Both the position numbers and the translations under genes were made by a program. A model generated the notes under the pieces. That model did no database searches. It worked only from the letters and a program-made list of their open reading frames with translations, and was not told the origin of the DNA. From a virus: a stretch of 47,644 bases of DNA. This document shows, piece by piece, positions 1 to 47,644 of the stretch. How positions within the stretch are numbered: the stretch's first letter is position 1; each line of letters begins with the position of its first letter. The stretch is taken from IMG/VR virus record IMGVR_UViG_3300029845_000021. The stretch is one strand, 5' to 3'.

Positions 1-96
1 TATATATGGCGGATTTTTTTCCGCTTCAACGGGATTTTTTTCCGCTTCAACGGGATTTTTTTCCGCTTCAACGGGATTTTTTTCCGCTTCAACGGG
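1..96. repeat. Terminal redundancy of the window: 1..96 is identical to 47549..47644 (closed circle or terminally redundant contig, unit length 47,548 bp)
   Basis: Direct comparison of both ends: TATATATGGCGG followed by four 21-bp units occurs at both ends. The reading frame of the junction gene is preserved across the join. Confidence 0.9.
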
Positions 97-435
97 ATTT
101 TTTTCCGCTTCAACGGATTTGTAAACGGTTCCCCAATCTCTTAACATTTGCGACGGGGTAAAACAAACGTGGTTGTCAATCTTTATTATTTGAATCAATC
201 CCAAATTTTCCAAATTCTTATAAAGCCGCCTTAACGTATCAACCTTATTTGGCAAAATTGGGCAATAAACAGATACGTTTTTATAGTCTGCCATGTAATA
301 CGGTTTCCCGGCGTATTGTATTGGATTTTGCGCCAACAAACCAAAGAAACATGACGCTAAAATGCTTTCCGTTGGGTTTAAATCTAAAACCCTTGAACGT
401 ACTAAATCTAAAATTAAATAACTTCTTTCGTTCAT
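1..435 (-). CDS. Replication initiator / replisome-organizer-like protein, N-terminal part (gene wraps the junction and continues at 47548..47012; 323 aa in total)
   Basis: ATG at 433-435. The frame stays open to position 1 (145 codons) and continues in frame from 47548 to the stop at 47012. The N-terminal ~95 aa (MNERSYLILDLVRSRVLDL...LENLGLIQIIKID) looks like a winged-helix domain. It is followed by (S/P)VEAEKN x5 encoded by the 21-bp repeats. Confidence 0.7.
   Translation of the reverse strand, partial: MNERSYLILDLVRSRVLDLNPTESILASCFFGLLAQNPIQYAGKPYYMADYKNVSVYCPILPNKVDTLRRLYKNLENLGLIQIIKIDNHVCFTPSQMLRDWGTVYKSVEAEKNPVEAEKNPVEAEKNPVEAEKNPVEAEKNPPYI
13..116. repeat. Five head-to-tail copies of the 21-bp unit ATTTTTTTCCGCTTCAACGGG (candidate iterons); last copy is 20 bp
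   Basis: Units at 13-33, 34-54, 55-75, 76-96 and 97-116 are identical by eye. There are no spacers, so this is not a CRISPR array. Confidence 0.9.
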
Positions 436-440
436 AGAAT

Positions 441-462
441 GAAAAAGCCCGTAATCCGGGCT
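441..462 (-). terminator. Intrinsic-terminator-like hairpin just upstream of the initiator start codon
   Basis: Minus strand reads AGCCCG-GATTA-CGGGCT followed by TTTTTC, ending 6 nt before the ATG at 435. A second CGGGCT copy at 479-484 offers an alternative pairing. Confidence 0.5.
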
Positions 463-538
463 ACCACACACCGGAAAACGGGCTTTGTGCTAATATTAGC
501 AAATATCTTGCAAACGGTGGTAGTCGTTGTTTATGCTG

Positions 539-569
539 CAAAAATAGATGTTTTTTTTGAATTATCAAA
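539..569 (-). promoter_or_regulatory. Bacteroidota-type promoter (-33 TTTG / -7 TAttTTTG, 19-nt spacer)
   Basis: Minus strand has TTTG at 569-566 and TATTTTTG at 546-539. The spacing is identical to three other sites in this genome. Confidence 0.55.
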
Positions 570-1700: not shown

Positions 1701-3107
1701 TTATATATCAATTTCAGTATTTAACAAATCTTTCTTTGTCACGGGTTCCGGCTTTTTAGGCTGTTTTTCTTCGATTTTAGCCACTTTTTCTTTTTTTGGT
1801 GTAATTGTACGTTTTGCGGTTTTCTTTTCCTTGACGGGCTTGTTTCCCGCCGTTTTTGCCGTTTTTCGTGTGGTTCTCTTTACGGTCTTGGTTTTCTTTT
1901 CCTCCGGTTCCGGTTGTGGTTCGGGTTCCGGGTCTTTCTTCAAATCCTCAACGGTAACGGCTTTTTCCGGTTCCGGCTTTTTCTTTTCCGCCGGGGCTTT
2001 GCTTTTAACAAGTTCCGCCAACGTCAGCGAAACAATATTGTTTGTCAAATCCGGTTCGTTATCCAATGATATTTCCCCGGAAACCGCCGTAAATGTATTA
2101 TCCCGTTTTTCGTCCTCAATTGCTGCCAACTCCAAAAGATACGGGATTTTCTTTGCGTTCGGGCTGTCTGTTTGGTCTTTCAAATTGTACGTCGGTTTCT
2201 TTCGCCAATCTTTCGGGCTAAAATTGAAAACACGGTCAATCGGAATATTCGGGAAATTTTCGTTCCACATCATCGCATATAAATGCAACTGAATTTCCGC
2301 TTCTTCGTAAAATCCTTTGCGCCCGCTTTTGAAATCCACAATTGCGTTTATGTATTCTTTTGAACCGGGCTTTGATAACATCGTACACGGTAAATCAATC
2401 ATTCCGGCGTAATTATGAACGGGGTGTACCAACGCAATTTCCACGGCTAACGGTTTAACGTCATAATCCAAAACAAATTGCGCAAATGCTAATATATCCT
2501 TTTTGAAATCATCAGCGTAATAAATGAAATCGGCGGGCAATTTGTTGTTATCAATATAATCTTTCAATTTGGCTTTCAATCCGTCCAAATCATAAACCCG
2601 GTTAATTATAAGTTCTTCAAATTGGGCGTGCATAAATGTACCATACGCCGCCCGTTCTGCCTTGTATCGCTCCGCCTCGTCAATTCCTTTGTCGGCAATC
2701 CATTTTATCAGAAACGGCGATTGTGGCATTGTTTGGGACAAAATTGTTGTAACTGACGGATAAAATTCCGGGGTTCCGTTGTCGTCAAACTTGTAATAAT
2801 ATCGGTGTCCTTTGCTGTTTAGCTGCCATACTTTATACGGCGGTTCAATCAACGCACCATCAAAAAACATTGCTGTCATTTCCTCAACCGTCATGCCCGG
2901 CACAATTTCAAAAGCCCCGGCGGGCTGTTCTATTTCGACGGAATCCAATCCGGGGACAATCTGTTGTTCATCGTTTATTTCCGGGAATTTATCGGCGGGC
3001 AATTGTCCCATTGCTTCCGCCAACTTCTTAACCGCATTTACTGCGTTACCCATTGTGTTTGCAATACTTTTTTCCGGGTTTTCCGGCTGTTTCTTTTTCG
3101 CTCTCAT
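1701..3107 (-). CDS. PD-(D/E)XK (Cas4 / RecB / lambda-Exo-like) nuclease with a lysine/proline-rich disordered C-terminal tail
   Basis: Motifs YGTFMHAQFE, AGMIDLP, IVDFKSGRK and QLHLYAMMW appear in the canonical order. The last ~110 aa are a K/E/P low-complexity region (PEPEPQPEPEEKKTKTVKRTTRKTAK...). Confidence 0.7.
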   Translation of the reverse strand: MRAKKKQPENPEKSIANTMGNAVNAVKKLAEAMGQLPADKFPEINDEQQIVPGLDSVEIEQPAGAFEIVPGMTVEEMTAMFFDGALIEPPYKVWQLNSKGHRYYYKFDDNGTPEFYPSVTTILSQTMPQSPFLIKWIADKGIDEAERYKAERAAYGTFMHAQFEELIINRVYDLDGLKAKLKDYIDNNKLPADFIYYADDFKKDILAFAQFVLDYDVKPLAVEIALVHPVHNYAGMIDLPCTMLSKPGSKEYINAIVDFKSGRKGFYEEAEIQLHLYAMMWNENFPNIPIDRVFNFSPKDWRKKPTYNLKDQTDSPNAKKIPYLLELAAIEDEKRDNTFTAVSGEISLDNEPDLTNNIVSLTLAELVKSKAPAEKKKPEPEKAVTVEDLKKDPEPEPQPEPEEKKTKTVKRTTRKTAKTAGNKPVKEKKTAKRTITPKKEKVAKIEEKQPKKPEPVTKKDLLNTEIDI

Positions 3108-7183: not shown

Positions 7184-10100
7184 TTATTCATAAAATTCTG
7201 TTGCCCCCTTTTCTAACTCATCCGGTATAAACGGCATACCTACCATTTCTTTGAAGTTTACAATAACCTCAAACAAAGGTTTTCCGTCTGTTCCGCTTTG
7301 CAGATAAAAGCCATCATCAATATTTGAATTAGCCAAAAATCTAACTGACTCGCCCTGCTGAATTGGGAATGATATACTTTTAGACTGAATGTTCTTGGCA
7401 ATCTTTCTGTTTGCTTCAATGGTTGTTGAATATCGGCTGTTTGGAACTTCCGTTAATGAACCATCCGGCGCAACCTTTACAGCCCAAAAATTTGCCTCAT
7501 TCATTGTGCTTGTTTCGTTGTATGCCTGCCCGGAATACTGAATTGTTATAATTCCGTCTGCCTCCGCCAATAAATCTCCTTGAACTTTGTTTGGGTCAGA
7601 CGCTCCGGGGTCTGCCCATGCGTTATTGTTGCTTACCAACGCCAAACCCTTTTTAATTCCCAAAGGTATATTTCCTGCAATCTTGTTATATGTATATCGG
7701 TAACTTGCATCACCTGCCGGGGTCATAACAACAAATTTTGCATAGTCTTTCTGATACTCCAAATATTTTTCCGAAATATGCGAACTATCTGTTATTACCA
7801 TTCGATTAAACCACGGGGTTATATCCCCCTCAAAATCATTCAATACCATAGTTGTTGGTATCTGCGAAGCATTAGGGAATATAATTACCGCAAATTCCTT
7901 TGCGTCAGTAGGAACAACAAACGTTTTTGTTGCTTCATGGATTCCGCTCACTGCATCCTCTGATATAAATAATTTGTCAGAAATGCTCCATCCTGCATTG
8001 AATTGCGGTTGGTCGTTATTGTAACTTACCAATTCCGGTGTTGGTGCTACATTTTCCGACCCGGTGTACTTCATCAATGCAACCACAAAGGCATTTTGTT
8101 TGTCTGTAATTTTAACGGTAGCTTTGTAATTTTTACCACGGCAAACAAAGGTGTCAAATCTGTTATATCGCTTAAACAAAGAAAATACGGGCAAATCCTT
8201 GTTATTATCTTTAACAATTAGTTGATTATTAGATATACTTACCTTTGCTGCTGTCTTAACTGACAAATATGTATTATCCCCCATATATGTAACATCATTG
8301 TTAATTTCCGTTTCGGGTTCGGGGAAAATCAATGTCCTTGCAAGGTTCAAAGAATTATATCCGTAATACTTGTTGTTCATCTTTACTTGATACCCGGTAA
8401 ATGCCATAAATGCCAACAACGCCTTTCCTACTCCATAGTCTTTGCCTACTGACTGAATCAACACACATGAATTTGCCCCAATAGACAATAATTCTTCATT
8501 TGGGAAATTGGTTTCTATACGCAAATGAACATCAGTATATGCTTTGGCTTGACACTCTCCTAAATACAATTCTTTTCGCTGCTCATCGCCCGCATTGTAG
8601 TCAATTTGAACTGCCATAGGATTGCCGTTAACGTCCAATAACGGGGTATCTGTGTCGTCAACGAATTCAAGTCTAATCCAACCGTCCTGCGTAATTCTGT
8701 TATCCCCATATTGCGTTGGCTCAATATACAAGCCAATTAAAAAGGTTGTTCCTCCGGATATATTGGGGTCGTCCTGCGGGTCAATATCTTGTATAACGAA
8801 AGATTTCTTTTGCATATCTTGATATACAGCAATACCGCCTTTGACTTTCAAATCAGAAAACCACAATCGGGATTTTGGATATTTAGAATTTACCAATTCA
8901 TCATTTCCTAACATAGCCAATATTCCCTCCGCATCTTTTTCTGGAACAACGGATAAATCAGCCTTGTAAATCGGGTCGCCATCGGGTGTTTGTCCATTTC
9001 CAACTTGTGCAATGCGAACCGTTCCATCCATACTTCCGACCTCTGTTGCTTTGAATGATTTTTTTGTTATTTTATCATTAAACAGAAATGGAACATCGCC
9101 CAAATTTACATTTGCTTCGTCTGTGTCACTGTCGTATTCAATATAAAATGGTTTTTTGAATCGTAAATTCTTTGTCTGCAACACGATATTTCCCTGCTCA
9201 TCGCTTGTTGTTAGGCTGCTATCAATAGTTTTATACCACGGAATAAAATCCCACGTATTTTCGTTCTGAATAGGCAAAAAAATGCCTGCAATCCCATTGC
9301 TTGTAACGGTTATTGGTGTATTTGCCCCATCAATACTTTCTCCGCCTGCCGGGCTAATTATCGCCTTATAATTGGCTGCCCCCGGTTCTTGTATAAGTTC
9401 CAAAATGATAATACGGTTATCCGATACGGGCGGCAATGTCTGTTGAATTGTTTGGTTGTTGCTCATCTGATAAACCAACAACAAAGTTGTACTTTTGTTG
9501 TACGGGTCTGTATTCAGATTTACCCCCTTTTGTACCTCTTGGCGGTTGGCATAGAATAACGCCTTAATCTGCTCGTTTGTCTTTCCTGCTGTTGCCGGGT
9601 GCGCTGTTTTAGACAATGCAATAAAAGCCGCATTTTGCTTAATCATACGGTCAAACTCTGTTGGGCTTATTGGGTTCTTTGCGTCTGCCAATCCTGCCGC
9701 CAAACCTTTTTCTTTGAGTTTTGCCAAATCTACGTCCGCTAAATCATTCTGAGCAAAATTACCGTCCTTTGCTTTTTTCTCAAAGTCTTTTGCATCAACA
9801 TTTGAAAGGTTTTTGCTTGCCCCGCCCAATGCCGCCAGCGTTGCGGCAAACGCCGGGGTTTTTACATACTTATCCAAATAATCTTTAATCCATTGTTCGT
9901 CCGCTCCTGCCGGAACCCACGGGATTTGTGCTGCATCATTAATTTCAATCGGCAAATATACATCAACCCACATTGCGCCCTGCCTATCGGAAAGAAATGT
10001 TCCTTTCTGAACTACTTCAACGCCCAATTTCTGTTGGTTTTCTGAAATGTATGTTCCGGTAATTGCTTTCGTGTCGCCCAAATAGGTTTGTGTGTAAACT

Positions 10101-10342
10101 TGCATTTGCCCCAATCCTAAAAGCGGAACGATATTAAACAATAACATATCGTTCTGAATCTTACAATTGGTGCAAACCCCTTTGTTTACCTCAAATTCAA
10201 ACGGCTTACCGCTTCCGGTAAAAATCGAACCTTTGACGTGTACGGAATCCGCCTTAATTGGGGCGTTGTTCTTATCCCGGAACATCATCATAATAATTTG
10301 GCTACTGCCTGCTGATAATTGCTTTAATTGTGCCATAATCAT
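7184..10342 (-). CDS. Large tail fibre / receptor-binding structural protein (1052 aa)
   Basis: Call rests on size and on position in the tail module just upstream of the lysis genes. No enzymatic motif was recognised. Confidence 0.6.
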   Translation of the reverse strand: MIMAQLKQLSAGSSQIIMMMFRDKNNAPIKADSVHVKGSIFTGSGKPFEFEVNKGVCTNCKIQNDMLLFNIVPLLGLGQMQVYTQTYLGDTKAITGTYISENQQKLGVEVVQKGTFLSDRQGAMWVDVYLPIEINDAAQIPWVPAGADEQWIKDYLDKYVKTPAFAATLAALGGASKNLSNVDAKDFEKKAKDGNFAQNDLADVDLAKLKEKGLAAGLADAKNPISPTEFDRMIKQNAAFIALSKTAHPATAGKTNEQIKALFYANRQEVQKGVNLNTDPYNKSTTLLLVYQMSNNQTIQQTLPPVSDNRIIILELIQEPGAANYKAIISPAGGESIDGANTPITVTSNGIAGIFLPIQNENTWDFIPWYKTIDSSLTTSDEQGNIVLQTKNLRFKKPFYIEYDSDTDEANVNLGDVPFLFNDKITKKSFKATEVGSMDGTVRIAQVGNGQTPDGDPIYKADLSVVPEKDAEGILAMLGNDELVNSKYPKSRLWFSDLKVKGGIAVYQDMQKKSFVIQDIDPQDDPNISGGTTFLIGLYIEPTQYGDNRITQDGWIRLEFVDDTDTPLLDVNGNPMAVQIDYNAGDEQRKELYLGECQAKAYTDVHLRIETNFPNEELLSIGANSCVLIQSVGKDYGVGKALLAFMAFTGYQVKMNNKYYGYNSLNLARTLIFPEPETEINNDVTYMGDNTYLSVKTAAKVSISNNQLIVKDNNKDLPVFSLFKRYNRFDTFVCRGKNYKATVKITDKQNAFVVALMKYTGSENVAPTPELVSYNNDQPQFNAGWSISDKLFISEDAVSGIHEATKTFVVPTDAKEFAVIIFPNASQIPTTMVLNDFEGDITPWFNRMVITDSSHISEKYLEYQKDYAKFVVMTPAGDASYRYTYNKIAGNIPLGIKKGLALVSNNNAWADPGASDPNKVQGDLLAEADGIITIQYSGQAYNETSTMNEANFWAVKVAPDGSLTEVPNSRYSTTIEANRKIAKNIQSKSISFPIQQGESVRFLANSNIDDGFYLQSGTDGKPLFEVIVNFKEMVGMPFIPDELEKGATEFYE

Positions 10343-10803
10343 TTGAATTTTTTCTTGTTAATACTATGTTTATCATTAATCGCCTTTATTAGCTTTTCGG
10401 CTTCTTCTTTCGTTATACACTTGACTATTTCCGCCGCCATATCTATTGCCTCAACTGCATTGCTTTGTTTGAGTTCGTAATTCTCTTTCATGCTCCAACC
10501 CTCCCTTAATAGAATACCCAATGTCAGTAATACAACAAAAAATGGAATACTGTAAAAAGGAAAAACTATAAGCCCCAAAACATCAATCATCGATACGTAT
10601 AAAACTAAACGCAAATAGTCTATGATTTTTTGCCCGGTTTTCCGCATCGGGTGGCTGCTTAATTTTTCTTTTCTCGCTTTCACGGCTTCGTATGCCGTCC
10701 AAAAATCAAAGAATGTCGCAAATACTACAAAAACACAACATACAAAGATTATTATCAAACAAACTTTCATGTCGTGTTGAATGAAATAAAAATACTTTTC
10801 CAT
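10339..10803 (-). CDS. Holin-like multi-pass membrane protein
   Basis: 154 aa with three hydrophobic helices and a charged C-terminal tail. ATGA overlap with the next gene. Confidence 0.45.
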   Translation of the reverse strand: MEKYFYFIQHDMKVCLIIIFVCCVFVVFATFFDFWTAYEAVKARKEKLSSHPMRKTGQKIIDYLRLVLYVSMIDVLGLIVFPFYSIPFFVVLLTLGILLREGWSMKENYELKQSNAVEAIDMAAEIVKCITKEEAEKLIKAINDKHSINKKKFK

Positions 10804-10816
10804 CGGTCTTTTTTGT

Positions 10817-10836
10817 GGTGCGGATTGTTCCGCACC
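10817..10836 (-). promoter_or_regulatory. Stable hairpin in the leader of the holin-like gene
   Basis: GGTGCGGA-ACAA-TCCGCACC (8-bp stem with a tetraloop), 14 nt upstream of the ATG at 10803. It has no U tract, so it is not a canonical terminator. Confidence 0.3.
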
Positions 10837-10987
10837 GGGTTAAACTTTGCATATTTTGATAAAATATTTTTGTTCAAATATTCCCTAACAACAAAAACCT
10901 TTGTTGGTGTTACATAACAAATAACGGGCTAACCGTGGTAATGGCGATAATACGCCATTGCTCCCAATTAAAAATTCTTTCCATAAT

Positions 10988-13420
10988 TTAATGCAATACA
11001 TCTTCGATATATGGTTCATCTAAATAAAACTGCGCATATCTCAACATTTCATTTATTACAACATTTGCAATTAATCTTCCACCTTTATTATTTGGATGAA
11101 CTTGGTCAATTAAATATTCTTTTATATTTAGTGTTGAAATTCTACTTAAAGCATTAACATCTATTACTGGCAATCCGTATATAGCTGCCACATCTTTAAT
11201 AACCTTACAATAATCTAATATAGTAAGTTCTATTCTATTTTTATAAGGATAATCCGCATTATTATAACTATTATAAAAATTATGTGGTGTGCATAAAAAT
11301 ATTTTAGCATTTGGCAATCTTGCAACCAATTTTCGTATCATCAAACCATAAGCATACATAAAATGAGATTCATCGCCATCTTCTAAAGTACCAATCTCAA
11401 CACTCGCCGTAATATCATTTGCACCTGCATAAACACATAAAATATTCGTATCTAACGGTATTGTATTAATTCTTTCATCTCCGCACATATAATCAGATAT
11501 TGTAATTGTACCGCTATCGGGATTTGAGGCGTTATAATAACCATTCTCATCCACTTTCTTATTTTTTGGATTTACATCAGTTATCTTTGACCCTCCTATA
11601 CCCCTATTGTAGTGGTCTGCCATTCTTAAAAATTTCCATACATATTTTTGCCATGACATTAATTCAACAATAGAATCTCCGTATGATGTAAACTTCTTTC
11701 CTTCATAAGATAATCTTATAATAGTATTTATATTCAACAATGATTCTTTTATTTCTTCAACTTTACACGGAAAGTAATTAACCGAAGCAAATGGAAATAA
11801 TGTTATATTCTGAAAATTTAATACAATATAACTCGGCGTATTATCTATTTTTACTTCCCTAAATGTGTTTAATTGTGTTCCCGTATATTTTATCCATTCG
11901 CCTAAATCATTATAAGTTCCTACACTAAATGCATTGGTAAATATAGACTTAACGTTTGTATCTATTGGAATAAATTGCGTTGTTTTATATGATGCATTAC
12001 TTTGATATGAACCATTAACATTATTATAACCTTCTATTATATTATTAATTATAATATTTTTATCATAATCAATATTAGGAATTTCAGTAATTCCAAATTG
12101 TATAGGTATAAAATTTTCCTCAAACCCAATATAATAAAATTGACGTTCTTTGTTATTCCAACCTTTAACAAATGTGGCATCTTTGGGGATTTCTTTTTTT
12201 CTAATATCAACACCGCTTCCGGTAATCGATATAATTTTACTCAAAAAAACCAAATTATCTTTAGTGCCGGTATAGAAAAACAACGAATAGGAATTTGTAT
12301 ATATAAATTTTTTATTCTTAGGTATTTCAATTGCTTCTATTACTACACCATTACCTTTTATAACATTTCCACTATTATCTATTGTCTTATTTTCATATAA
12401 TAACTCATTATAGACTTTGTTAATTGATGATTGCGCAATAGCATCATAAATATTATAATTTAATTCTAATATTTCATTAAAGTCTTTATATGTCAATATT
12501 CTTTCCCAATTAGAATCTTTTATCCAATTGGAATTATCAAACGTTGTACCTTTATATGTTTCTATAACTTGATTAATCCCGTCATTATAAGTTATTGTAA
12601 ATCCTTGTTTACGTGCTATTAGACTAACTTGTAGTCTTGTATTCAATACATTAGTGCCGTATGATAATGTTTCAAAGCAATAGTTATCAATAGGTATATA
12701 TGATTCGACTTCTCTAATTTGACCTAAATACAAATAACTTCTATAAATACCCGTATCATCCTTATAAGAAAAGATTAATCCCTCTCTCTTATAATAAGTA
12801 TTTGGTAGTGCTTGTCTTGCTGTATTAGGTGAATTATATGTTGAATTAGTTACAAAACTAATATTAATAAATGGCAATTTAGTTGACGGGAAAATACTTG
12901 CCCAATATAAATTATCTTGCCAATATGCATCATCCATTAATGTACCTATATACATTTCCGTTGTTAACTCTCCGGTTTTACCATTTCTATAACTTAATAT
13001 TTTCCCGGTTCTTCTATTTGATTTTGCAACTTGTAATCTTGTTGTTTTTAAATCCGTATTAAAATCAATTGCAATTGCTGCTTTTTTTTCTATATCTTTT
13101 AAAGATTGCGATAGTGCTATACCCGCACTTTGCTTTACCCAACTACCAGTTTTATTAGTAAATATTACAACTTCATCATTTACTTCTATTGCATTAAAAT
13201 TACTATAAGTACCATTTATTGAAGCAATCCAAAAAACATTTTGGTCGGGTGTACCGGGATTTGTTGACGGTATTGCAATCCCGGCAAATGTCGCATTACT
13301 TCCGACCGTTGCAATAATAGATAATAAAGCATTTTGCATTATCTTCCCCGTAATTTTTTGGTTTCCGTTTGTTTTAATTACATCGGAAATCGCTTGTTTT
13401 AATTGTTCGTAATTTCCCAT
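10988..13420 (-). CDS. Tail fibre/spike with a C-terminal SGNH (GDSL) esterase domain
   Basis: All four SGNH blocks occur in the last ~230 aa: SYGDSIVE, RGIGGSKI, YAGANDIT and DQVHPN. The gene is very AT-rich except for its first ~70 codons. Confidence 0.75.
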   Translation of the reverse strand: MGNYEQLKQAISDVIKTNGNQKITGKIMQNALLSIIATVGSNATFAGIAIPSTNPGTPDQNVFWIASINGTYSNFNAIEVNDEVVIFTNKTGSWVKQSAGIALSQSLKDIEKKAAIAIDFNTDLKTTRLQVAKSNRRTGKILSYRNGKTGELTTEMYIGTLMDDAYWQDNLYWASIFPSTKLPFINISFVTNSTYNSPNTARQALPNTYYKREGLIFSYKDDTGIYRSYLYLGQIREVESYIPIDNYCFETLSYGTNVLNTRLQVSLIARKQGFTITYNDGINQVIETYKGTTFDNSNWIKDSNWERILTYKDFNEILELNYNIYDAIAQSSINKVYNELLYENKTIDNSGNVIKGNGVVIEAIEIPKNKKFIYTNSYSLFFYTGTKDNLVFLSKIISITGSGVDIRKKEIPKDATFVKGWNNKERQFYYIGFEENFIPIQFGITEIPNIDYDKNIIINNIIEGYNNVNGSYQSNASYKTTQFIPIDTNVKSIFTNAFSVGTYNDLGEWIKYTGTQLNTFREVKIDNTPSYIVLNFQNITLFPFASVNYFPCKVEEIKESLLNINTIIRLSYEGKKFTSYGDSIVELMSWQKYVWKFLRMADHYNRGIGGSKITDVNPKNKKVDENGYYNASNPDSGTITISDYMCGDERINTIPLDTNILCVYAGANDITASVEIGTLEDGDESHFMYAYGLMIRKLVARLPNAKIFLCTPHNFYNSYNNADYPYKNRIELTILDYCKVIKDVAAIYGLPVIDVNALSRISTLNIKEYLIDQVHPNNKGGRLIANVVINEMLRYAQFYLDEPYIEDVLH

Positions 13421-13431
13421 AATCTAATAAT

Positions 13432-14298
13432 TTAATTGTTGTTGAAATCATTATTGAAATCTTCGTTAAAATCTCCTTTGTTTGCTGTTATATTATAGCC
13501 ACGTCCTATTTTCTTGACGACGGTATTTGTTTTAAATTCAATTTCCACGCTCGCCAAATCTCCCTGCGTTTGCCATTTTGGGGTAATTAGAAACGTGTCG
13601 CAATCGTATTCCCTGCCGTATTTATCCGTTATATGAATATAATCAGCCATACGGATAAAACGCATAACGTCGCAAAGGAACTCCGGTGCCAATATCGTAC
13701 ATTTAAACGTTTTGACTGATATTTGTTTTTCCGGAAAAAAATACCCGTCCCGTTCTTCGCCATCCTCTTCAAATTCATAATCCGGTTTTCCCAACTCTGT
13801 ACAAAGGTACAACGTATTTTTGAAATCCGGGTTTTTATATACTATTTGCCCGGCGTCAAATACCAAATTTTCAATATCCCACCATTGTATTTTTAAGTAA
13901 CCGGAAACATCTTGCACGACCGTAAACATTTCAGAATACCACGTTTGCGCGCCATCCGATAACGTCATATAATATATTCCGTCCAACTGATTTAATGGCA
14001 TGGGTAATATTGACGGGTACAATATAACATCATAACCCAACGTTTGAAACCGGACAATCTGCAATCCGGTTTCTTTCATGTACGTTGTTATGTTTGCAAC
14101 TTGTTTTCCGGTTTTATCGTACAATATAACCGACGACACATTATTTGCCCGTGTGTTTCTGATTATCTGAAAAGGTAACAATCTATCAGCCGGGGCAAAC
14201 AACGGGTAAATTGCGCCGTATGCGTAACTTTTTCTGTGGTTCTGTTCATTTATTGACGTGTACCACGGCAAAACGCTTATATTATTATTCTGTATCAT
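13432..14298 (-). CDS. Tail/baseplate-associated structural protein (hypothetical)
   Basis: 288-aa ORF between tail genes. It overlaps the upstream gene by 14 nt. Confidence 0.6.
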   Translation of the reverse strand: MIQNNNISVLPWYTSINEQNHRKSYAYGAIYPLFAPADRLLPFQIIRNTRANNVSSVILYDKTGKQVANITTYMKETGLQIVRFQTLGYDVILYPSILPMPLNQLDGIYYMTLSDGAQTWYSEMFTVVQDVSGYLKIQWWDIENLVFDAGQIVYKNPDFKNTLYLCTELGKPDYEFEEDGEERDGYFFPEKQISVKTFKCTILAPEFLCDVMRFIRMADYIHITDKYGREYDCDTFLITPKWQTQGDLASVEIEFKTNTVVKKIGRGYNITANKGDFNEDFNNDFNNN

Positions 14299-44257: not shown

Positions 44258-44446
44258 TTATTTTGTTAATTCTCTCATTCTTTGGTATATCATTGTTTGC
44301 ACCTTAACAAATGCGTCCCGGCTTTCTTTCGCTTCCTCAACCGTGCAATCAGCAATGAAATTTTCCAAACGCTTGTATAATTCGTTCAACTCTTTGTCGC
44401 TCATTGCGTGCCGGATTGCTCCTACTTCATCAACAAACTTTCCCAT
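44258..44446 (-). CDS. Small hypothetical protein (62 aa from the ATG at 44446)
   Basis: MGKFVDEVGAIRHAMSDKELNELYKRLE... The longer track form starts at TTG and overlaps the upstream gene by 86 nt. Confidence 0.45.
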   Translation of the reverse strand: MGKFVDEVGAIRHAMSDKELNELYKRLENFIADCTVEEAKESRDAFVKVQTMIYQRMRELTK

Positions 44447-44636
44447 CTTTACAAATCCTTTTAAGTTCTTCCAAATCCTTACGTTTCGGTTCTTCTGCGT
44501 TCTTGGTCGCATCAATCAAAGGCATATTGTTTGTTGTTGTCGTCCATCTTTTACCCGTTGCCGGGGACGTGTAAGTTACTTTGTAATATCCGTGTCCGGC
44601 AATCTCAAAATCAAAATCGTAAATCGTTGTTTTCAT
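44430..44636 (-). CDS. Small hypothetical protein (68 aa), first gene of the DNA-metabolism operon
   Basis: ATG start preceded by the conserved leader hairpin. Confidence 0.55.
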   Translation of the reverse strand: MKTTIYDFDFEIAGHGYYKVTYTSPATGKRWTTTTNNMPLIDATKNAEEPKRKDLEELKRICKDGKVC

Positions 44637-44670: not shown

Positions 44671-44846
44671 CGGTGTTTGTCATACTTTGAAAGATTTTGG
44701 CTTTATAGCTTCATTTAATCGGTTACCGAACCATCATTTAACCCTTTGTAGATACCGTTGCTTACTTTCTACTCTTACGAACTTAATCTTTCAACAGTCT
44801 TTTTGCATTTTGGTTAGACTGTGGGGTCTTTCGTTGTTTGACACTG

Positions 44847-44877
44847 CAAATATACGCATAACATTTTAACTACCAAA
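44847..44877 (-). promoter_or_regulatory. Bacteroidota-type promoter (-33 TTTG / -7 TAtaTTTG, 19-nt spacer)
   Basis: Minus strand has TTTG at 44877-44874 and TATATTTG at 44854-44847. The flanks TACCAAAA and TGTCAAACAACGA are shared with the promoter at 5562..5592. Confidence 0.6.
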
Positions 44878-44940: not shown

Positions 44941-45162
44941 TCAAAACAGCCTCATTTGTTTATCTGTTATTTTAGCAACAATTGCATCAACTTCACCTTC
45001 TAAACGTTTACACGTTTCCAATATTTCCGGTCTGCGTTGGGCAAAATATCTGCGTTGGTTATGTCGCATTTGTCGAATTAACTCGGCGAACTCTTCCAAC
45101 GTTATTTTTCCCGGATTTTCGATTTGCGGGGCTTTTTCTTCTTCCATGTATATTTTATCCAT
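44941..45162 (-). CDS. Hypothetical protein (73 aa); carries the second copy of the 19-bp repeat
   Basis: ATG-initiated ORF followed by a terminator. Confidence 0.55.
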   Translation of the reverse strand: MDKIYMEEEKAPQIENPGKITLEEFAELIRQMRHNQRRYFAQRRPEILETCKRLEGEVDAIVAKITDKQMRLF

Positions 45163-46089: not shown

Positions 46090-47025
46090 TCATATAAAAA
46101 ATAAATAGTTATCAATCTGTATTTCCTCCGCAATCATACGGTCAAAAGCCCGTATTATTTCCTTTTTCCGGGCAACCTCATACGCCGTAAAATCAATTTC
46201 CGGGATGTCAATTCCTTTTCTCCGGACGTTGAACGCCGTATATTGGTTTACCATTCCAATTGCCGCACGGTGCATATATTTTGCAAATGCTTGTTTTCTG
46301 TCGTCCTCGGTTGCCTCCACTTCGTCAGCAAATCCAAATTTCAACAACCAATCATACAAAAACATTTCGTCGCCAAATTCAAATGATATTTTCCCGGTGT
46401 ATTTGTATTGCAAAAAAACAATTCTGTTTCTTGCTTCCCTGCGGTTGTGGTAATATCTCTTTTGCTCCGGCGTCATTTCTCTTTTAGGTTCCGGCAACGC
46501 TTTATATGCTTTCCCAATTACTTCATTTTGTTTTTTCCGATACGCTCCCAATATCTTTGCAAAGTAATCGGCGTTGAACTGTTGATAATGGTTTTTGTCC
46601 GGATTCCCTTGTTTATCTTTCGGCAAATATTCGTCTAACTCTCCGGTCGTCGCCAACTCAAAAGCTATCTTAATATCAGCCAACGTCATATCTGAGTAAT
46701 AACGTTTCAGAATATCCAACAACCGGGATTGTATATAATTCCAATCATTTTCATTCTGTGGTATTATATAACCAACGTCTATTGCTATACGCTTAAACAG
46801 TAACGAAAGATTTTCAACTAATTTTGCATCGTCAATTTCCGCAATTGGTGTTTTTGTTGACGCTGCGAAAACATATTTTTCAACTGGGTTTAATGCTTTG
46901 GCAACCTCCGGCAATTGCACCATTCTACGGCGTACTTCAATGGCTTTTGTTCCGGGCTTGGTATTATATATTTCTAACGCCGTATTTTCTTTTTTTTCAA
47001 TTGCTCCCATATCAATCAAAATCAT
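46090..47025 (-). CDS. Hypothetical replication-module protein (311 aa) in the position of lambda P (helicase-loader analogue is speculation)
   Basis: Immediately downstream of the initiator gene. Alternative ATG at 47010. No NTPase motif was seen. Confidence 0.55.
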   Translation of the reverse strand: MILIDMGAIEKKENTALEIYNTKPGTKAIEVRRRMVQLPEVAKALNPVEKYVFAASTKTPIAEIDDAKLVENLSLLFKRIAIDVGYIIPQNENDWNYIQSRLLDILKRYYSDMTLADIKIAFELATTGELDEYLPKDKQGNPDKNHYQQFNADYFAKILGAYRKKQNEVIGKAYKALPEPKREMTPEQKRYYHNRREARNRIVFLQYKYTGKISFEFGDEMFLYDWLLKFGFADEVEATEDDRKQAFAKYMHRAAIGMVNQYTAFNVRRKGIDIPEIDFTAYEVARKKEIIRAFDRMIAEEIQIDNYLFFI

Positions 47026-47644
47026 TGTTTAAATACTTCATCATATCCGCAATTTCTTTGCTGCTTTGCTGCTCTGTCTTTACGGAACGTTTCATTTTTT
47101 CCCATTTTTCGTATTTTTCGGGGGTTGAATCATATTCTAACGCCGCCCAACCTTTTGAAATGCTTTCTTTTATCAGAATCAGCGCAAATTCTTCCGGGTA
47201 TTTACTCAAACCATTTAAGTTTGCTTGTATCGCTGAAAAACTCTTTTGCGACGTTCTCCATTTCGGTTGACACATCAAAATATAAAAGTTCCGTTTAAAT
47301 TCATCGCTATCAAATGGGAATACAAGTTTTGCAAAGCAATTATCAACTTTATCAATTACTTGTTTTCTGACGTCCAACAATTCCGGGGTAAACCCATAAA
47401 CAATACTTGCTTTAACTGTTTTTTCTTCGTTTGAAAAATCGGCTTGTGAAAATCCGTCCGGATTTTCTTTAGATGCTTTAGCATCTTTCTTTATAGTGTT
47501 ATTTATATTATTATTTATATTATTATTTATATTATTATTTATATTATTTATATATGGCGGATTTTTTTCCGCTTCAACGGGATTTTTTTCCGCTTCAACG
47601 GGATTTTTTTCCGCTTCAACGGGATTTTTTTCCGCTTCAACGGG
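47012..47644 (-). CDS. Replication initiator, C-terminal part (continues from 1..435 across the junction; 47549..47644 duplicates 1..96)
   Basis: The frame upstream of the track ORF (47012..47380) stays open through the AT tract and the iterons: ...PVEAEKNPPYINNINNNINNNINNNINNTIKKDAKASKENPDGFSQADF... The C-terminal domain is DnaD/replisome-organizer-like (KWRTSQKSFSAIQANLNGLSKYPEEFALILIKESISKGWAAL). Confidence 0.7.
   Translation of the reverse strand, partial: PVEAEKNPVEAEKNPVEAEKNPVEAEKNPPYINNINNNINNNINNNINNTIKKDAKASKENPDGFSQADFSNEEKTVKASIVYGFTPELLDVRKQVIDKVDNCFAKLVFPFDSDEFKRNFYILMCQPKWRTSQKSFSAIQANLNGLSKYPEEFALILIKESISKGWAALEYDSTPEKYEKWEKMKRSVKTEQQSSKEIADMMKYLNNDFD
47448..47467. repeat. 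Perfect inverted repeat GAAAATCCG-tc-CGGATTTTC next to the AT-rich tract
   Basis: 9-bp arms read directly from the sequence. The arm equals the first 9 nt of the 19-bp repeat at 39874 and 45112. Confidence 0.85.
47499..47556. repeat. 58-bp tract containing no G or C, built from 12-bp units TTATTATTTATA (3 perfect units plus partial flanks)
   Basis: Perfect units at 47508-47519, 47520-47531 and 47532-47543. The tract directly abuts the iteron array. Confidence 0.9.
47561..47644. repeat. Four 21-bp iteron units at the window end (the same DNA as 13..96)
   Basis: Units at 47561, 47582, 47603 and 47624 are identical to the units at the window start. Confidence 0.9.

What the first reader, a model, noticed from the sequence alone, without database searches (positions are those of the whole stretch)
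47448..47644. Lambda-ori-like replication origin embedded in the initiator's own reading frame
Seen in sequence:
- Five head-to-tail copies of ATTTTTTTCCGCTTCAACGGG (47561..47644, continuing at 97..116 after the wrap).
- Directly next to them, a 58-bp stretch with no G or C, made of TTATTATTTATA units (47499..47556).
- About 30 bp further on, a perfect palindrome GAAAATCCG-tc-CGGATTTTC (47448..47467).

All three elements lie inside one open frame. They translate to a (S/P)VEAEKN x5 - PPY - (INNN)n linker that joins a winged-helix N-domain (1..435) to a DnaD-like C-domain.

Established knowledge: in phage lambda, ori consists of four iterons plus an AT-rich region and sits in the middle of gene O, whose product binds it.

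Inference: this is the phage origin, and the initiator binds its own coding sequence. Because the contig was broken inside this repeat, the true iteron copy number may be under-assembled.
Basis: partly seen in the sequence, partly recalled or inferred. Interest (0 to 1): 0.7.

Follow-up and report, generated by a model that had tools for sequence, protein, structure and literature searches.

The report
Phage replication origin inside initiator gene
A gut Bacteroidales phage carries its probable replication origin (five protein-binding repeats, an easily melted AT-only stretch and a small palindrome) inside the gene for its own replication initiator, the layout long known from phage lambda, so it is a well-supported but not surprising new example.

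Summary
The window is a circular contig whose last 96 bases repeat its first 96. The circle therefore holds one array of five 21-bp units, a 57-bp AT-only run and a 9+9 palindrome. All three lie in the disordered linker of a 323-aa replication-initiator gene on the minus strand.

Comparative data show DNA-level selection rather than peptide-level selection:
- Sister genomes 89-99% identical on both flanks carry three alternative cassettes, each an N-terminal domain with its own repeat, joined to the same AT tract and C-domain.
- In type C the repeat is read in two to three reading frames.
- In 77 loci with distant N-domain relatives, the dyad CGGA-W(3-10)-TCCG occurs 210 times just after the domain. 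It occurs twice in the other 178 kb, and it is read in all three frames.
- Copy number ranges from 2 to 10 among close relatives.
- Cultured Bacteroides, Parabacteroides and Flavobacterium phages show the same layout.

The lambda-like origin reading is supported, though binding and firing are untested. The "DnaD-like C-domain" claim is not supported, and GC skew is uninformative. This is a new member of a known kind, of moderate interest.

The parts
1..435 (-). 5' part of the initiator gene (codons 1-145): N-terminal domain plus the repeat-encoded linker. The ATG is at 435 and the ORF continues across the circular junction to 47548.
   Evidence: ORF reconstruction on the circularised contig. 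PHROG hits: phrog_428 replication initiation protein 2.8e-8, phrog_678 O-like 7.6e-5, phrog_186 DnaD-like helicase loader 1.7e-4.
47012..47548 (-). 3' part of the initiator gene (codons 146-323 plus stop): AT-tract-encoded (INNN)n, palindrome-encoded KENPDGF, and the helical C-domain.
   Evidence: The C-domain model has pLDDT 86.
136..435 (-). N-terminal domain (about aa 1-100), the predicted winged-helix DNA-binding module that sets iteron specificity.
   Evidence: AF2 topology H-H-bb-H-H-bb-H at pLDDT 53-80. All Foldseek PDB hits are winged-helix regulators, but weak (E >= 0.077). 27% identity (pairwise E 3e-6) to the type B N-domain, which scores above the Pfam cut-offs for HTH_36 and DnaD_N.
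10..117 (.). Iteron array of five 21-bp units. The conserved core is a 14-15-bp dyad, CGGAAAAAAATCC(C)G on the coding strand, at 10-23 (canonical 14-mer next to the AT tract), 30-44, 51-65, 72-86 and 93-107. The spacer TTGAAG is variable.
   Evidence: Per-position conservation over 111 units from 23 genomes. The same dyad is about 1000-fold enriched after homologous N-domains in 77 loci.
47558..47644 (.). Second appearance of four of the same iterons. This is the assembly overlap (47549..47644 = 1..96), not additional copies.
   Evidence: Exact 96-bp terminal overlap.
47499..47555 (.). 57-bp AT-only tract, (TTTATATTATTA)n, the predicted DNA unwinding element. It encodes (INNN)n.
   Evidence: The tract is shared by types A, B and C, and its length varies between genomes.
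47448..47467 (.). Perfect palindrome GAAAATCCG-tc-CGGATTTTC, 31 bp beyond the AT tract, encoding (K)ENPDGF. It is a third conserved element of unknown role.
   Evidence: At least 8-bp arms are kept in 42 distinct relatives, with variation only at the centre and the innermost pair. At the equivalent position, B. fragilis phages carry AATCTAC-TAAC-GTAGATT, AATCTCC-TAAC-GGAGATT or AATTGAC-TAAC-GTCAATT, with compensatory, non-synonymous arm changes.
47030..47398 (-). C-terminal helical domain (about aa 196-318), the presumed recruiter module. It is shared with B40-8/B124-14-type initiators.
   Evidence: tblastn shows 46-54% identity to B. fragilis phage initiators over aa 187-306. Models. No PDB fold match.
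46090..47025 (-). Downstream 311-aa gene overlapping the initiator's 3' end by 14 nt. It sits in the position of lambda P and travels with the C-domain.
   Evidence: phrog_34953, unknown function. 28% identity, E 7e-43, to B124-14 ORF061, which likewise follows that phage's initiator. No similarity to the gene after the FCL-2 initiator, which shares only the N-domain.
539..569 (-). Bacteroidetes-type promoter-like motif upstream of the initiator: TTTG at 566-569 and TATTTTTG at 539-546. Low certainty.
   Evidence: Motif search on the minus strand. The consensus is taken from general knowledge of Bacteroides promoters and was not tested.

Best explanation
This is most likely the phage's origin of theta-type replication, built like ori-lambda and placed in the disordered linker of the initiator gene.

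Proposed mechanism:
- The initiator's N-terminal winged-helix domain binds, probably as dimers, to five dyad sites, CGGAAAAAAATCC(C)G.
- The sites are spaced exactly 21 bp apart (two helical turns), so all lie on one face of the helix and the A7 tracts are in phase.
- The resulting nucleoprotein complex stresses and melts the adjacent 57-bp AT-only tract.
- The helical C-domain, probably together with the translationally coupled 311-aa downstream protein, brings in the replicative helicase.
- A palindrome 31 bp beyond the AT tract is a third conserved DNA element of unknown role.

Shown here: the elements themselves; their DNA-level conservation; their co-variation with the N-domain; the predicted disorder of the peptide they encode; and the initiator-family affinity of the protein.

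Inferred: binding, dimer stoichiometry, bending, unwinding, helicase recruitment, and that replication actually starts here.
For: 1. Initiator identity. PHROG replication-initiation families match. NCBI nr, as reported in the search output, names a 294-aa homologue (89% identity, full coverage) 'replisome organizer'. Relatives carry HTH_36, DnaD_N, Lin1244_N and DUF6291.

2. Cassette co-variation. Genomes 89-99% identical on both flanks carry three N-domain types, each with its own repeat: type A 21 bp, type B 24 bp (GCCGGGTATCAAAACAGCACCGTA), and type C the palindrome AGTCCGAAAACGGACT at 22/23 bp. The non-homologous block runs from 6-39 nt before the ATG into the AT tract.

3. Frame independence. 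The type C core occurs 116 times in 30 genes, in frames 85/30/1, read as QSENGL, SPKTDF or VRKRTL. Linkers of N-domain relatives contain SEKNP, GKKSE and RKKIR, the three frames of CGGAAAAAAATCCG. In 77 loci there are 210 dyads within 260 bp after the N-domain and 2 in the remaining 178 kb, in frames 62/89/59, with 139 of 143 spacings not multiples of 3.

4. Within type A (111 units). Positions 2-5, 11-13 and 15-21 are invariant or nearly so, including 4-fold third positions. Amino acids change instead (P/S, E/G). The non-synonymous pair fraction is 0.138 against 0.075 synonymous; in the N-domain it is 0.080 against 0.164.

5. The array and the AT-only run are unique in the genome.

6. The linker (aa 102-195) has pLDDT below 35.

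7. Cultured phages B40-8, B124-14, BF695P3, PD691P4 and FCL-2 show the same order: repeats, then an AT-rich stretch, then in most of them a palindrome.

8. Precedents. ori-lambda lies in gene O, with 4 iterons (6 in Stx phages) plus an AT-rich tract, and two iterons suffice (PMC7466680, PMC3349717). SPP1 oriL lies in gene 38 (PMC5737612). The minimum seen here is also two copies.
Against: - There is no experimental or read-coverage evidence that replication starts here.
- Cumulative GC skew is monotonic, with no inflection, so it neither supports nor contradicts.
- The type A N-domain has no Pfam hit of its own, and its fold assignment rests on a medium-confidence model with weak Foldseek matches.
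- The type A unit is in frame (21 bp), so within type A alone peptide and DNA conservation are partly confounded, and concerted evolution could freeze third positions.
- The protein is not a detectable member of the lambda O Pfam family.
- In many of the 77 distant loci the AT-rich tract is much less extreme.
Confidence: 0.8

Rival explanations
1. The repeats are initiator-binding sites, but their main role is regulation or competition rather than origin firing. Candidates are autorepression of the initiator operon, titration or 'handcuffing', or exclusion of co-infecting phages of the same specificity type. The true origin would lie elsewhere.
For: The same comparative evidence for DNA-level binding sites applies. 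In lambda, cloned iterons alone inhibit replication of homologous phages (PMC3349717). The A/B/C cassette polymorphism in otherwise near-identical genomes resembles incompatibility or specificity groups.
Against: The sites sit directly beside the most extreme AT-only tract of the genome, which is the classic iteron-plus-DUE geometry. No second iteron cluster exists elsewhere. The single outlying dyad at 2757-2770 is equally conserved in type A, B and C genomes, so it is not type-linked. The two roles are not mutually exclusive.
Confidence: 0.1
2. The array is only a slippage-prone, low-complexity protein linker, a peptide repeat VEAEKNP that tunes the spacing between two domains, with no function as DNA.
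For: The unit is 21 bp (7 codons). Copy number varies from 2 to 10 in whole units. The encoded region is predicted to be disordered.
Against: - The peptide is not conserved while the DNA is.
- Non-synonymous differences exceed synonymous ones within units, and five of seven third positions are invariant in 111 units.
- Deviant units in L015/L018 change only the spacer and keep the dyad.
- Homologous N-domains are followed by the same dyad read in all three frames, at spacings that are not multiples of 3.
- Type C repeats are read in two to three frames.
Confidence: 0.03
3. The site is a packaging (pac/cos) or other terminus-related signal, or an assembly artefact, because the contig and many related contigs end there.
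For: The contig junction falls in the array, and about 21 of 80 related contigs end in the repeat/AT region.
Against: - Tandem repeats with strain-level copy-number differences are expected breakpoints for short-read assemblers.
- The same array lies internal in many other contigs and in finished genomes of cultured phages.
- The repeats co-vary with the winged-helix domain of the replication protein, not with any packaging gene.
- The 96-bp end overlap indicates a circular assembly, not a physical end.
Confidence: 0.03

Closest known systems
ori-lambda within gene O of phage lambda and lambdoid/Stx phages
   Same: - The origin lies in the middle of the initiator gene.
- It has several direct repeats with internal dyad symmetry and A-tracts, followed on the 3' side by an AT-rich tract (four 18-bp iterons plus 38 bp in lambda: PMC3349717, PMC7466680).
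- Iteron number varies naturally, adding residues to the protein (4 versus 6 in Stx phages, +13 aa; here 2-10, 7 aa per unit).
- Two iterons are the functional minimum in lambda, and two is the minimum seen here.
- From my own recollection, not checked here: lambdoid phages likewise pair N-terminal domains with cognate iterons, and lambda has a palindrome beyond the AT-rich tract.
   Different: - Pfam Phage_rep_O does not match the window protein. The type B N-domain scores only 15.3 bits against a cut-off of 28.7.
- The iteron sequence differs, and here the array is a perfect 21-bp tandem.
- The C-domain and the downstream partner are unrelated to O-C and P.
- The host is a Bacteroidales bacterium.
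SPP1 oriL within gene 38 (G38P, 'replisome organizer')
   Same: The origin is embedded in the initiator's own gene. It consists of repeated initiator-binding boxes plus an adjacent AT-rich DUE, and the initiator has no AAA+ domain (PMC5737612). According to the search output, NCBI nr names one close homologue of the window protein 'replisome organizer'.
   Different: No sequence or family match to G38P was found. SPP1 has a second binding region, oriR; no second cluster exists here. SPP1 encodes its own helicase and loader next to gene 38. None was recognised near this gene.
Iteron-containing plasmid origins (RepA/RepE/pi type)
   Same: Winged-helix initiator, 19-22-bp iterons phased at about two helical turns, and an adjacent AT-rich DUE (general knowledge; review PMC4980987, seen only as a title and abstract in the search results and not read).
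   Different: Plasmid iterons lie outside the rep coding sequence. This protein shows no match to the plasmid Rep families.
DnaD N-terminal / HTH_36 winged-helix domains of phage replication proteins
   Same: The type B sister cassette scores above the Pfam cut-offs for HTH_36 (32.5 bits against 25) and DnaD_N (27.1 against 27). The type A N-domain is distantly similar to type B. 16 of 118 relatives hit HTH_36 and 4 hit DnaD_N.
   Different: The window's own N-domain does not reach any Pfam threshold. The C-domain is not the DnaD/DnaB_2 C-domain.

Membership tests
Lambda-type origin (ori embedded in the initiator gene) | Cluster of two or more direct repeats (iterons) inside the initiator ORF, between the DNA-binding and recruiter domains | tested here: met
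   Five 21-bp units at 13-117 lie between the N-domain (aa 1-100) and the C-domain (aa 196-318).
Lambda-type origin (ori embedded in the initiator gene) | AT-rich unwinding tract directly adjacent, on the 3' side of the iterons in the gene's orientation | tested here: met
   The 57-bp AT-only run at 47499..47555 lies 2 bp from the last dyad. It is the longest AT-only run and contains the lowest-GC 60-bp window of the genome.
Lambda-type origin (ori embedded in the initiator gene) | Iteron sequence is selected as DNA and co-varies with the initiator's DNA-binding domain | tested here: met
   Three N-domain/repeat cassettes occur in 89-99% identical backgrounds. The motifs are read in several frames. 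Third positions are frozen while amino acids vary.
Lambda-type origin (ori embedded in the initiator gene) | Initiator protein binds the iterons | not testable with these tools
   Needs EMSA or footprinting with purified protein.
Lambda-type origin (ori embedded in the initiator gene) | Replication initiates at the site, or the site confers autonomous replication | not testable with these tools
   No reads or infection time course are available. GC skew is monotonic and uninformative.
Lambda O protein family (Pfam PF04492 Phage_rep_O) | Score above the family's gathering threshold | tested here: not met
   No Pfam hit for the full protein or for the type A N-domain. The type B N-domain scores 15.3 bits against 28.7. 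Only a PHROG 'O-like' profile matches, at 7.6e-5.
DnaD-like initiators (DnaD_N + DnaB_2/DnaD C-domain) | N-terminal DnaD_N winged helix | tested here: inconclusive
   Type A has no Pfam hit, and its model matches winged-helix regulators only weakly. Sister type B reaches DnaD_N at 27.1 against 27 and HTH_36 at 32.5 against 25. The A-B pairwise similarity has E 3e-6.
DnaD-like initiators (DnaD_N + DnaB_2/DnaD C-domain) | C-terminal DnaD/DnaB_2 domain | tested here: not met
   No Pfam or PHROG hit for the C-domain. No PDB sequence hit, either single-sequence or profile. The pLDDT-86 model has its best PDB Foldseek hit at E 2.1, probability 0.08. Only 1 of 118 relatives carries DnaB_2; its position in that protein was not determined.
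SPP1 G38P replisome-organizer family | Sequence membership in the G38P family | tested here: not met
   No such Pfam family appears among the hits for the protein or its 118 relatives.

The most novel reading that the evidence does not exclude
The origin may be a three-part, modular device under diversifying selection in a natural gut-phage population.

- At least three interchangeable 'specificity cassettes' (N-domain plus cognate iterons) circulate in genomes that are otherwise about 90-99% identical.
- Iteron number ranges from 2 to 10.
- These cassettes could define replication-specificity groups shaped by competition between co-infecting phages, by satellites, or by host defences that target initiators.
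- The palindrome beyond the AT tract keeps its symmetry through compensatory, non-synonymous changes in B. fragilis phages. It could be a previously unrecognised origin element read by the C-domain, or by its conserved 311-aa partner, whose folds have no solved relative.
Probability: 0.25. Interest if true: 0.6.

Novelty: new member of a known kind. Interest (0 to 1): 0.4.

Why it matters
No paper found in the literature searches describes an origin for Bacteroides, Parabacteroides or Flavobacterium siphophages, and the B124-14 genome paper mentions none.

This analysis gives a concrete, testable origin prediction for the window phage and for the cultured phages B40-8, B124-14, BF695P3, PD691P4 and FCL-2. 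It also gives a recognition motif, CGGA-W6-TCCG, for one large family of winged-helix initiator domains.

The prediction is useful for engineering gut-phage or Bacteroides vectors, for annotating origins in viromes, and for explaining why assemblies of these phages break at this gene.

Conceptually it shows again that phages place origins in the disordered linker of the initiator, where coding constraint is lowest. It also provides a clean natural experiment: cassette swaps and copy-number series.

Tried and rejected
- GC/AT skew. It is monotonic around the whole circle (G-C skew -0.11 to -0.22 in every 2-kb bin) because all genes are on one strand. There is no inflection, so it is uninformative.

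- Pfam on the full protein and on the C-domain gave nothing. PDB sequence searches with single sequences and with profiles gave only spurious hits.

- The C-domain fold search gave no PDB match, so the DnaD-like reading is rejected. BFVD returned only sequence relatives and weak hits to 'putative DNA replication proteins'.

- A homologue search seeded with the PD691P4 protein returned only 3 proteins. The alignment-based locus search with all N-domains failed for lack of a conserved block. A narrower alignment worked.

- Extra dyad at 2757-2770 (chance about 0.013 by my own rough estimate, not a tool result) as a possible second binding site. It is conserved in 78 of 80 relatives regardless of initiator type A, B or C and lies in a conserved coding stretch, so there is no evidence that it is an initiator site.

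- Synonymous-site test of the palindrome among close relatives. Arms are conserved, but background diversity is too low to be significant (mean synonymous 0.044 against 0.058). The evidence for the palindrome comes instead from compensatory changes in B. fragilis phages.

- The AT tract as the locus-wide GC minimum in the 77 distant loci held for only a minority.

- Terminal overlap as extra iteron copies was rejected. It is the same DNA.

Full report
**1. What is in the sequence**

The window ends with an exact copy of its first 96 bases. It is therefore a circularly assembled contig of 47,548 unique bp with 39.8% G+C, and every long ORF is on the minus strand.

Once the circle is closed, one minus-strand ORF starts at ATG 435, crosses the junction and stops at 47012-47014. 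It encodes 323 aa. Inside it lie three elements:
- One array of five 21-bp units at 13-117. The last unit has one mismatch. TRF reports period 21, 5.3 copies and 98% matches.
- A 57-bp run without G or C at 47499-47555.
- A perfect 9+9 palindrome at 47448-47467.

The four units at the window's end are the same DNA as 13-96, not extra copies. Array and palindrome are unique in the genome. The AT-only run is twice as long as any other and contains the lowest-GC 60-bp window.

**2. The gene**

PHROGs places the protein in replication-initiator families: phrog_428 at 2.8e-8, 'O-like' phrog_678 at 7.6e-5 and 'DnaD-like helicase loader' phrog_186 at 1.7e-4. Pfam is silent.

An AlphaFold model built on a shallow alignment gives three regions:
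- An N-domain (aa 1-100, pLDDT 53-80) with the topology H-H-bb-H-H-bb-H.
- A linker (aa 102-195) with pLDDT below 35.
- A helical C-domain with pLDDT 81-93.

The linker is exactly the part encoded by the repeats, the AT tract and the palindrome. Foldseek hits to the PDB are weak (E >= 0.077), but all are winged-helix DNA binders such as ArsR/SmtB, TubR, CodY-C, PerR and MarR.

Modelled alone, the C-domain reaches pLDDT 86. It has no PDB fold match (best E 2.1) and no Pfam, PHROG or PDB sequence match.

**3. Close relatives: copy number and cassettes**

The protein has 1,745 homologues. The top 120 clusters are 82-96% identical and 293-384 aa long, and the length differences come from 2 to 10 VEAEKNP-type units.

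Eighty IMG/VR loci were fetched. They fall into three types that share the same (NNNI)n AT tract and the same C-domain, but each has a different N-domain followed by its own repeat:
- Type A (the window): the 21-bp unit CCCGTTGAAGCGGAAAAAAAT.
- Type B: the 24-bp unit GCCG(G/A)GT(A/T)(T/A)CAAAAC(A/G)GCACCGTA.
- Type C: the 16-bp perfect palindrome AGTCCGAAAACGGACT at 22- or 23-bp spacing.

blastn shows that type B and C loci are 87-99% identical to the window up to 6-39 nt before the ATG, and again from inside the AT tract onward. The swapped block is therefore precisely N-domain plus repeats.

The three N-domains are only remotely alike (25-27% identity over partial alignments). Type B scores above the Pfam cut-offs for HTH_36 and DnaD_N.

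**4.

- Type C. The 14-bp core occurs 116 times in 30 distinct genes, in frames 85/30/1, giving QSENGL, SPKTDF or VRKRTL. Spacings are 22, 23 and 42 bp.
- Type A, 111 units from 23 genomes. Positions 2-5 (CCGT), 11-13 (CGG) and 15-21 (AAAAAAT) are invariant or nearly so. These include the third positions of GCG, GAA, GAA, AAA and AAT. Variation sits at position 1 (C/T, Pro/Ser), position 6 (T/G/A, synonymous) and position 14 (A/G, Glu/Gly).
- Pairwise non-synonymous differences (0.138) exceed synonymous ones (0.075) in the repeats. The adjacent N-domain shows the usual opposite pattern (0.080 against 0.164).
- Deviant units in L015 and L018 change only positions 6-10.

The conserved core is thus a dyad, CGGAAAAAAATCC(C)G, that spans unit boundaries, separated by a free spacer TTGAAG. 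In window coordinates the dyads lie at 10-23, 30-44, 51-65, 72-86 and 93-107. The one next to the AT tract is the canonical 14-mer.

**5. Distant relatives**

An exhaustive search of 1.84 billion representatives found 440 relatives. Of the 149 listed representatives (plus P0121-P0123), 8 share both domains, 108 share only the C-domain and 30 share only the N-domain.

The linkers after the homologous N-domains contain SEKNP, GKKSE and RKKIR. These are the three reading frames of CGGAAAAAAATCCG.

This was checked on DNA in 77 distinct IMG/VR loci with FCL-2-like N-domains:
- CGGA-W(3-10)-TCCG occurs 210 times within 260 bp after the N-domain and twice in the other 178 kb (10.6 against 0.011 per kb).
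- It is read in frames 62/89/59.
- Spacings are mostly 22, 35 or 44 bp, and 139 of 143 are not multiples of 3.

**6. Cultured phages**

All show the same gene layout:
- PD691P4: ACGGATTTAAATCCGA twice.
- FCL-2: ACTCGGAAAATAATCCGAC three times at 22/23 bp.
- B40-8 type: GGTGAAAATCACC-containing 23-bp repeats, read as WGENHH and GVKITT.
- B124-14 type: 22-bp repeats.
- BF695P3/BK649P1 type: 15-bp repeats, 4-5 copies.

In each, the repeats are followed by an AT-rich stretch.

In all nine B. fragilis/B. ovatus phage genes examined, a 7+7 palindrome then follows. It occurs as AATCTAC-TAAC-GTAGATT, AATCTCC-TAAC-GGAGATT or AATTGAC-TAAC-GTCAATT. The arm changes are compensatory and non-synonymous (KSTNVDY, KSPNGDY, KLTNVNY). 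This makes the palindrome a DNA-level (or RNA-level) element too.

In the window's own clade the arms are kept in 42 distinct sequences, but diversity there is too low for a test.

The 311-aa gene that overlaps the initiator's stop is homologous to the gene following the B124-14 initiator (E 7e-43). It is not homologous to the gene following FCL-2's initiator, so it travels with the C-domain.

**7. Interpretation**

The anatomy matches ori-lambda: iterons plus an AT-rich tract in the middle of gene O, iteron number varying from 4 to 6 among relatives, and two iterons as the functional minimum (PMC7466680, PMC3349717). It also matches SPP1 oriL inside gene 38 (PMC5737612).

The most likely mechanism has these steps:
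- Winged-helix dimers bind the five in-phase dyads (21 bp is two helical turns, with the A7 tracts in phase).
- The complex melts the AT-only tract.
- The C-domain, with its partner, recruits the helicase.

Binding, unwinding and firing are inferred. GC skew cannot test this, because it is monotonic.

Three rivals were considered: a purely regulatory or exclusion role for the sites, a mere peptide linker, and a packaging site or assembly artefact. They are discussed in the rival section; the second and third are contradicted by the data above.

**8. Novelty**

The kind of system is textbook. The protein is not a detectable member of the lambda O, G38P or DnaD-C families. Searches of the held literature found no description of an origin for Bacteroidota siphophages.

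I rate it a new member of a known kind. The useful extras are a recognition motif for a large initiator family, natural cassette swaps and a copy-number series, and a conserved palindrome of unknown role.

Noticed in passing
window 44676-44869 (minus strand), between ORFs 44258..44515 and 44941..45162: An intergenic stretch of about 190 nt is 84-93% identical to unannotated intergenic DNA of B. fragilis and B. salyersiae siphophages that otherwise share almost no megablast-level DNA with this 3.5-kb query. It is preceded by a terminator-like hairpin and a conserved TATATTTG (Bacteroides -7-like) box. A 4-sequence alignment gives 36 pairs, 6 of them with compensatory changes. The single-sequence fold z-score is only -0.25. 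There is no tRNA, no Rfam family and no ORF. It is a candidate phage ncRNA.
   Followed up: partly
window 2757-2770: A single extra canonical dyad, CGGAATTTTATCCG, lies inside the 468-aa PD-(D/E)XK-like gene (chance about 0.013 by my own rough estimate). It is conserved in 78 of 80 relatives irrespective of initiator type A, B or C, so it is probably just coding sequence (PEFYP) and not an initiator site.
   Followed up: yes
window 442-466 and 539-569 (minus strand): Upstream of the initiator ATG there is a Bacteroides-type promoter-like pair (TTTG ... TATTTTTG). Just before the ATG there is a GC-rich hairpin (AGCCCG-GATTA-CGGGCT) followed by T5. This could be a terminator for the upstream gene or an attenuator. 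In some type B/C genomes the cassette boundary lies at -39, so the hairpin is swapped along with the cassette.
   Followed up: no
window 46090-47025 (minus strand): A 311-aa protein of unknown function (phrog_34953, no Pfam) overlaps the initiator's 3' end by 14 nt and is conserved next to B124-14-type initiators (28% identity, E 7e-43). It sits in the position of lambda P and may be the helicase-recruiting partner.
   Followed up: partly
IMG/VR loci L023-L030, L032, L034-L042, L044, L054, L056: About 21 of 80 related viral contigs begin or end inside the iteron/AT region of this gene. It is a systematic assembly breakpoint, probably caused by the tandem repeat and by strain-level copy-number differences.
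   Followed up: partly
window about 10000-14000, especially 11900-12500: This is a markedly low-GC region (0.31-0.33 against 0.40 for the genome). It holds the second-longest AT-only run (12035-12063) and small tandem repeats, all inside the 810-aa ORF 10988..13420. It may be a recently exchanged structural or receptor-binding gene.
   Followed up: no
representative proteins P0127, P0129, P0130: Proteins with a type A N-domain (72-98% identical), the VEAEKNP repeats and the Asn-rich tract continue into entirely different C-terminal domains. The recombination joint at the AT tract therefore works in both directions: N-cassettes are swapped onto C-modules, and C-modules onto N-cassettes.
   Followed up: no
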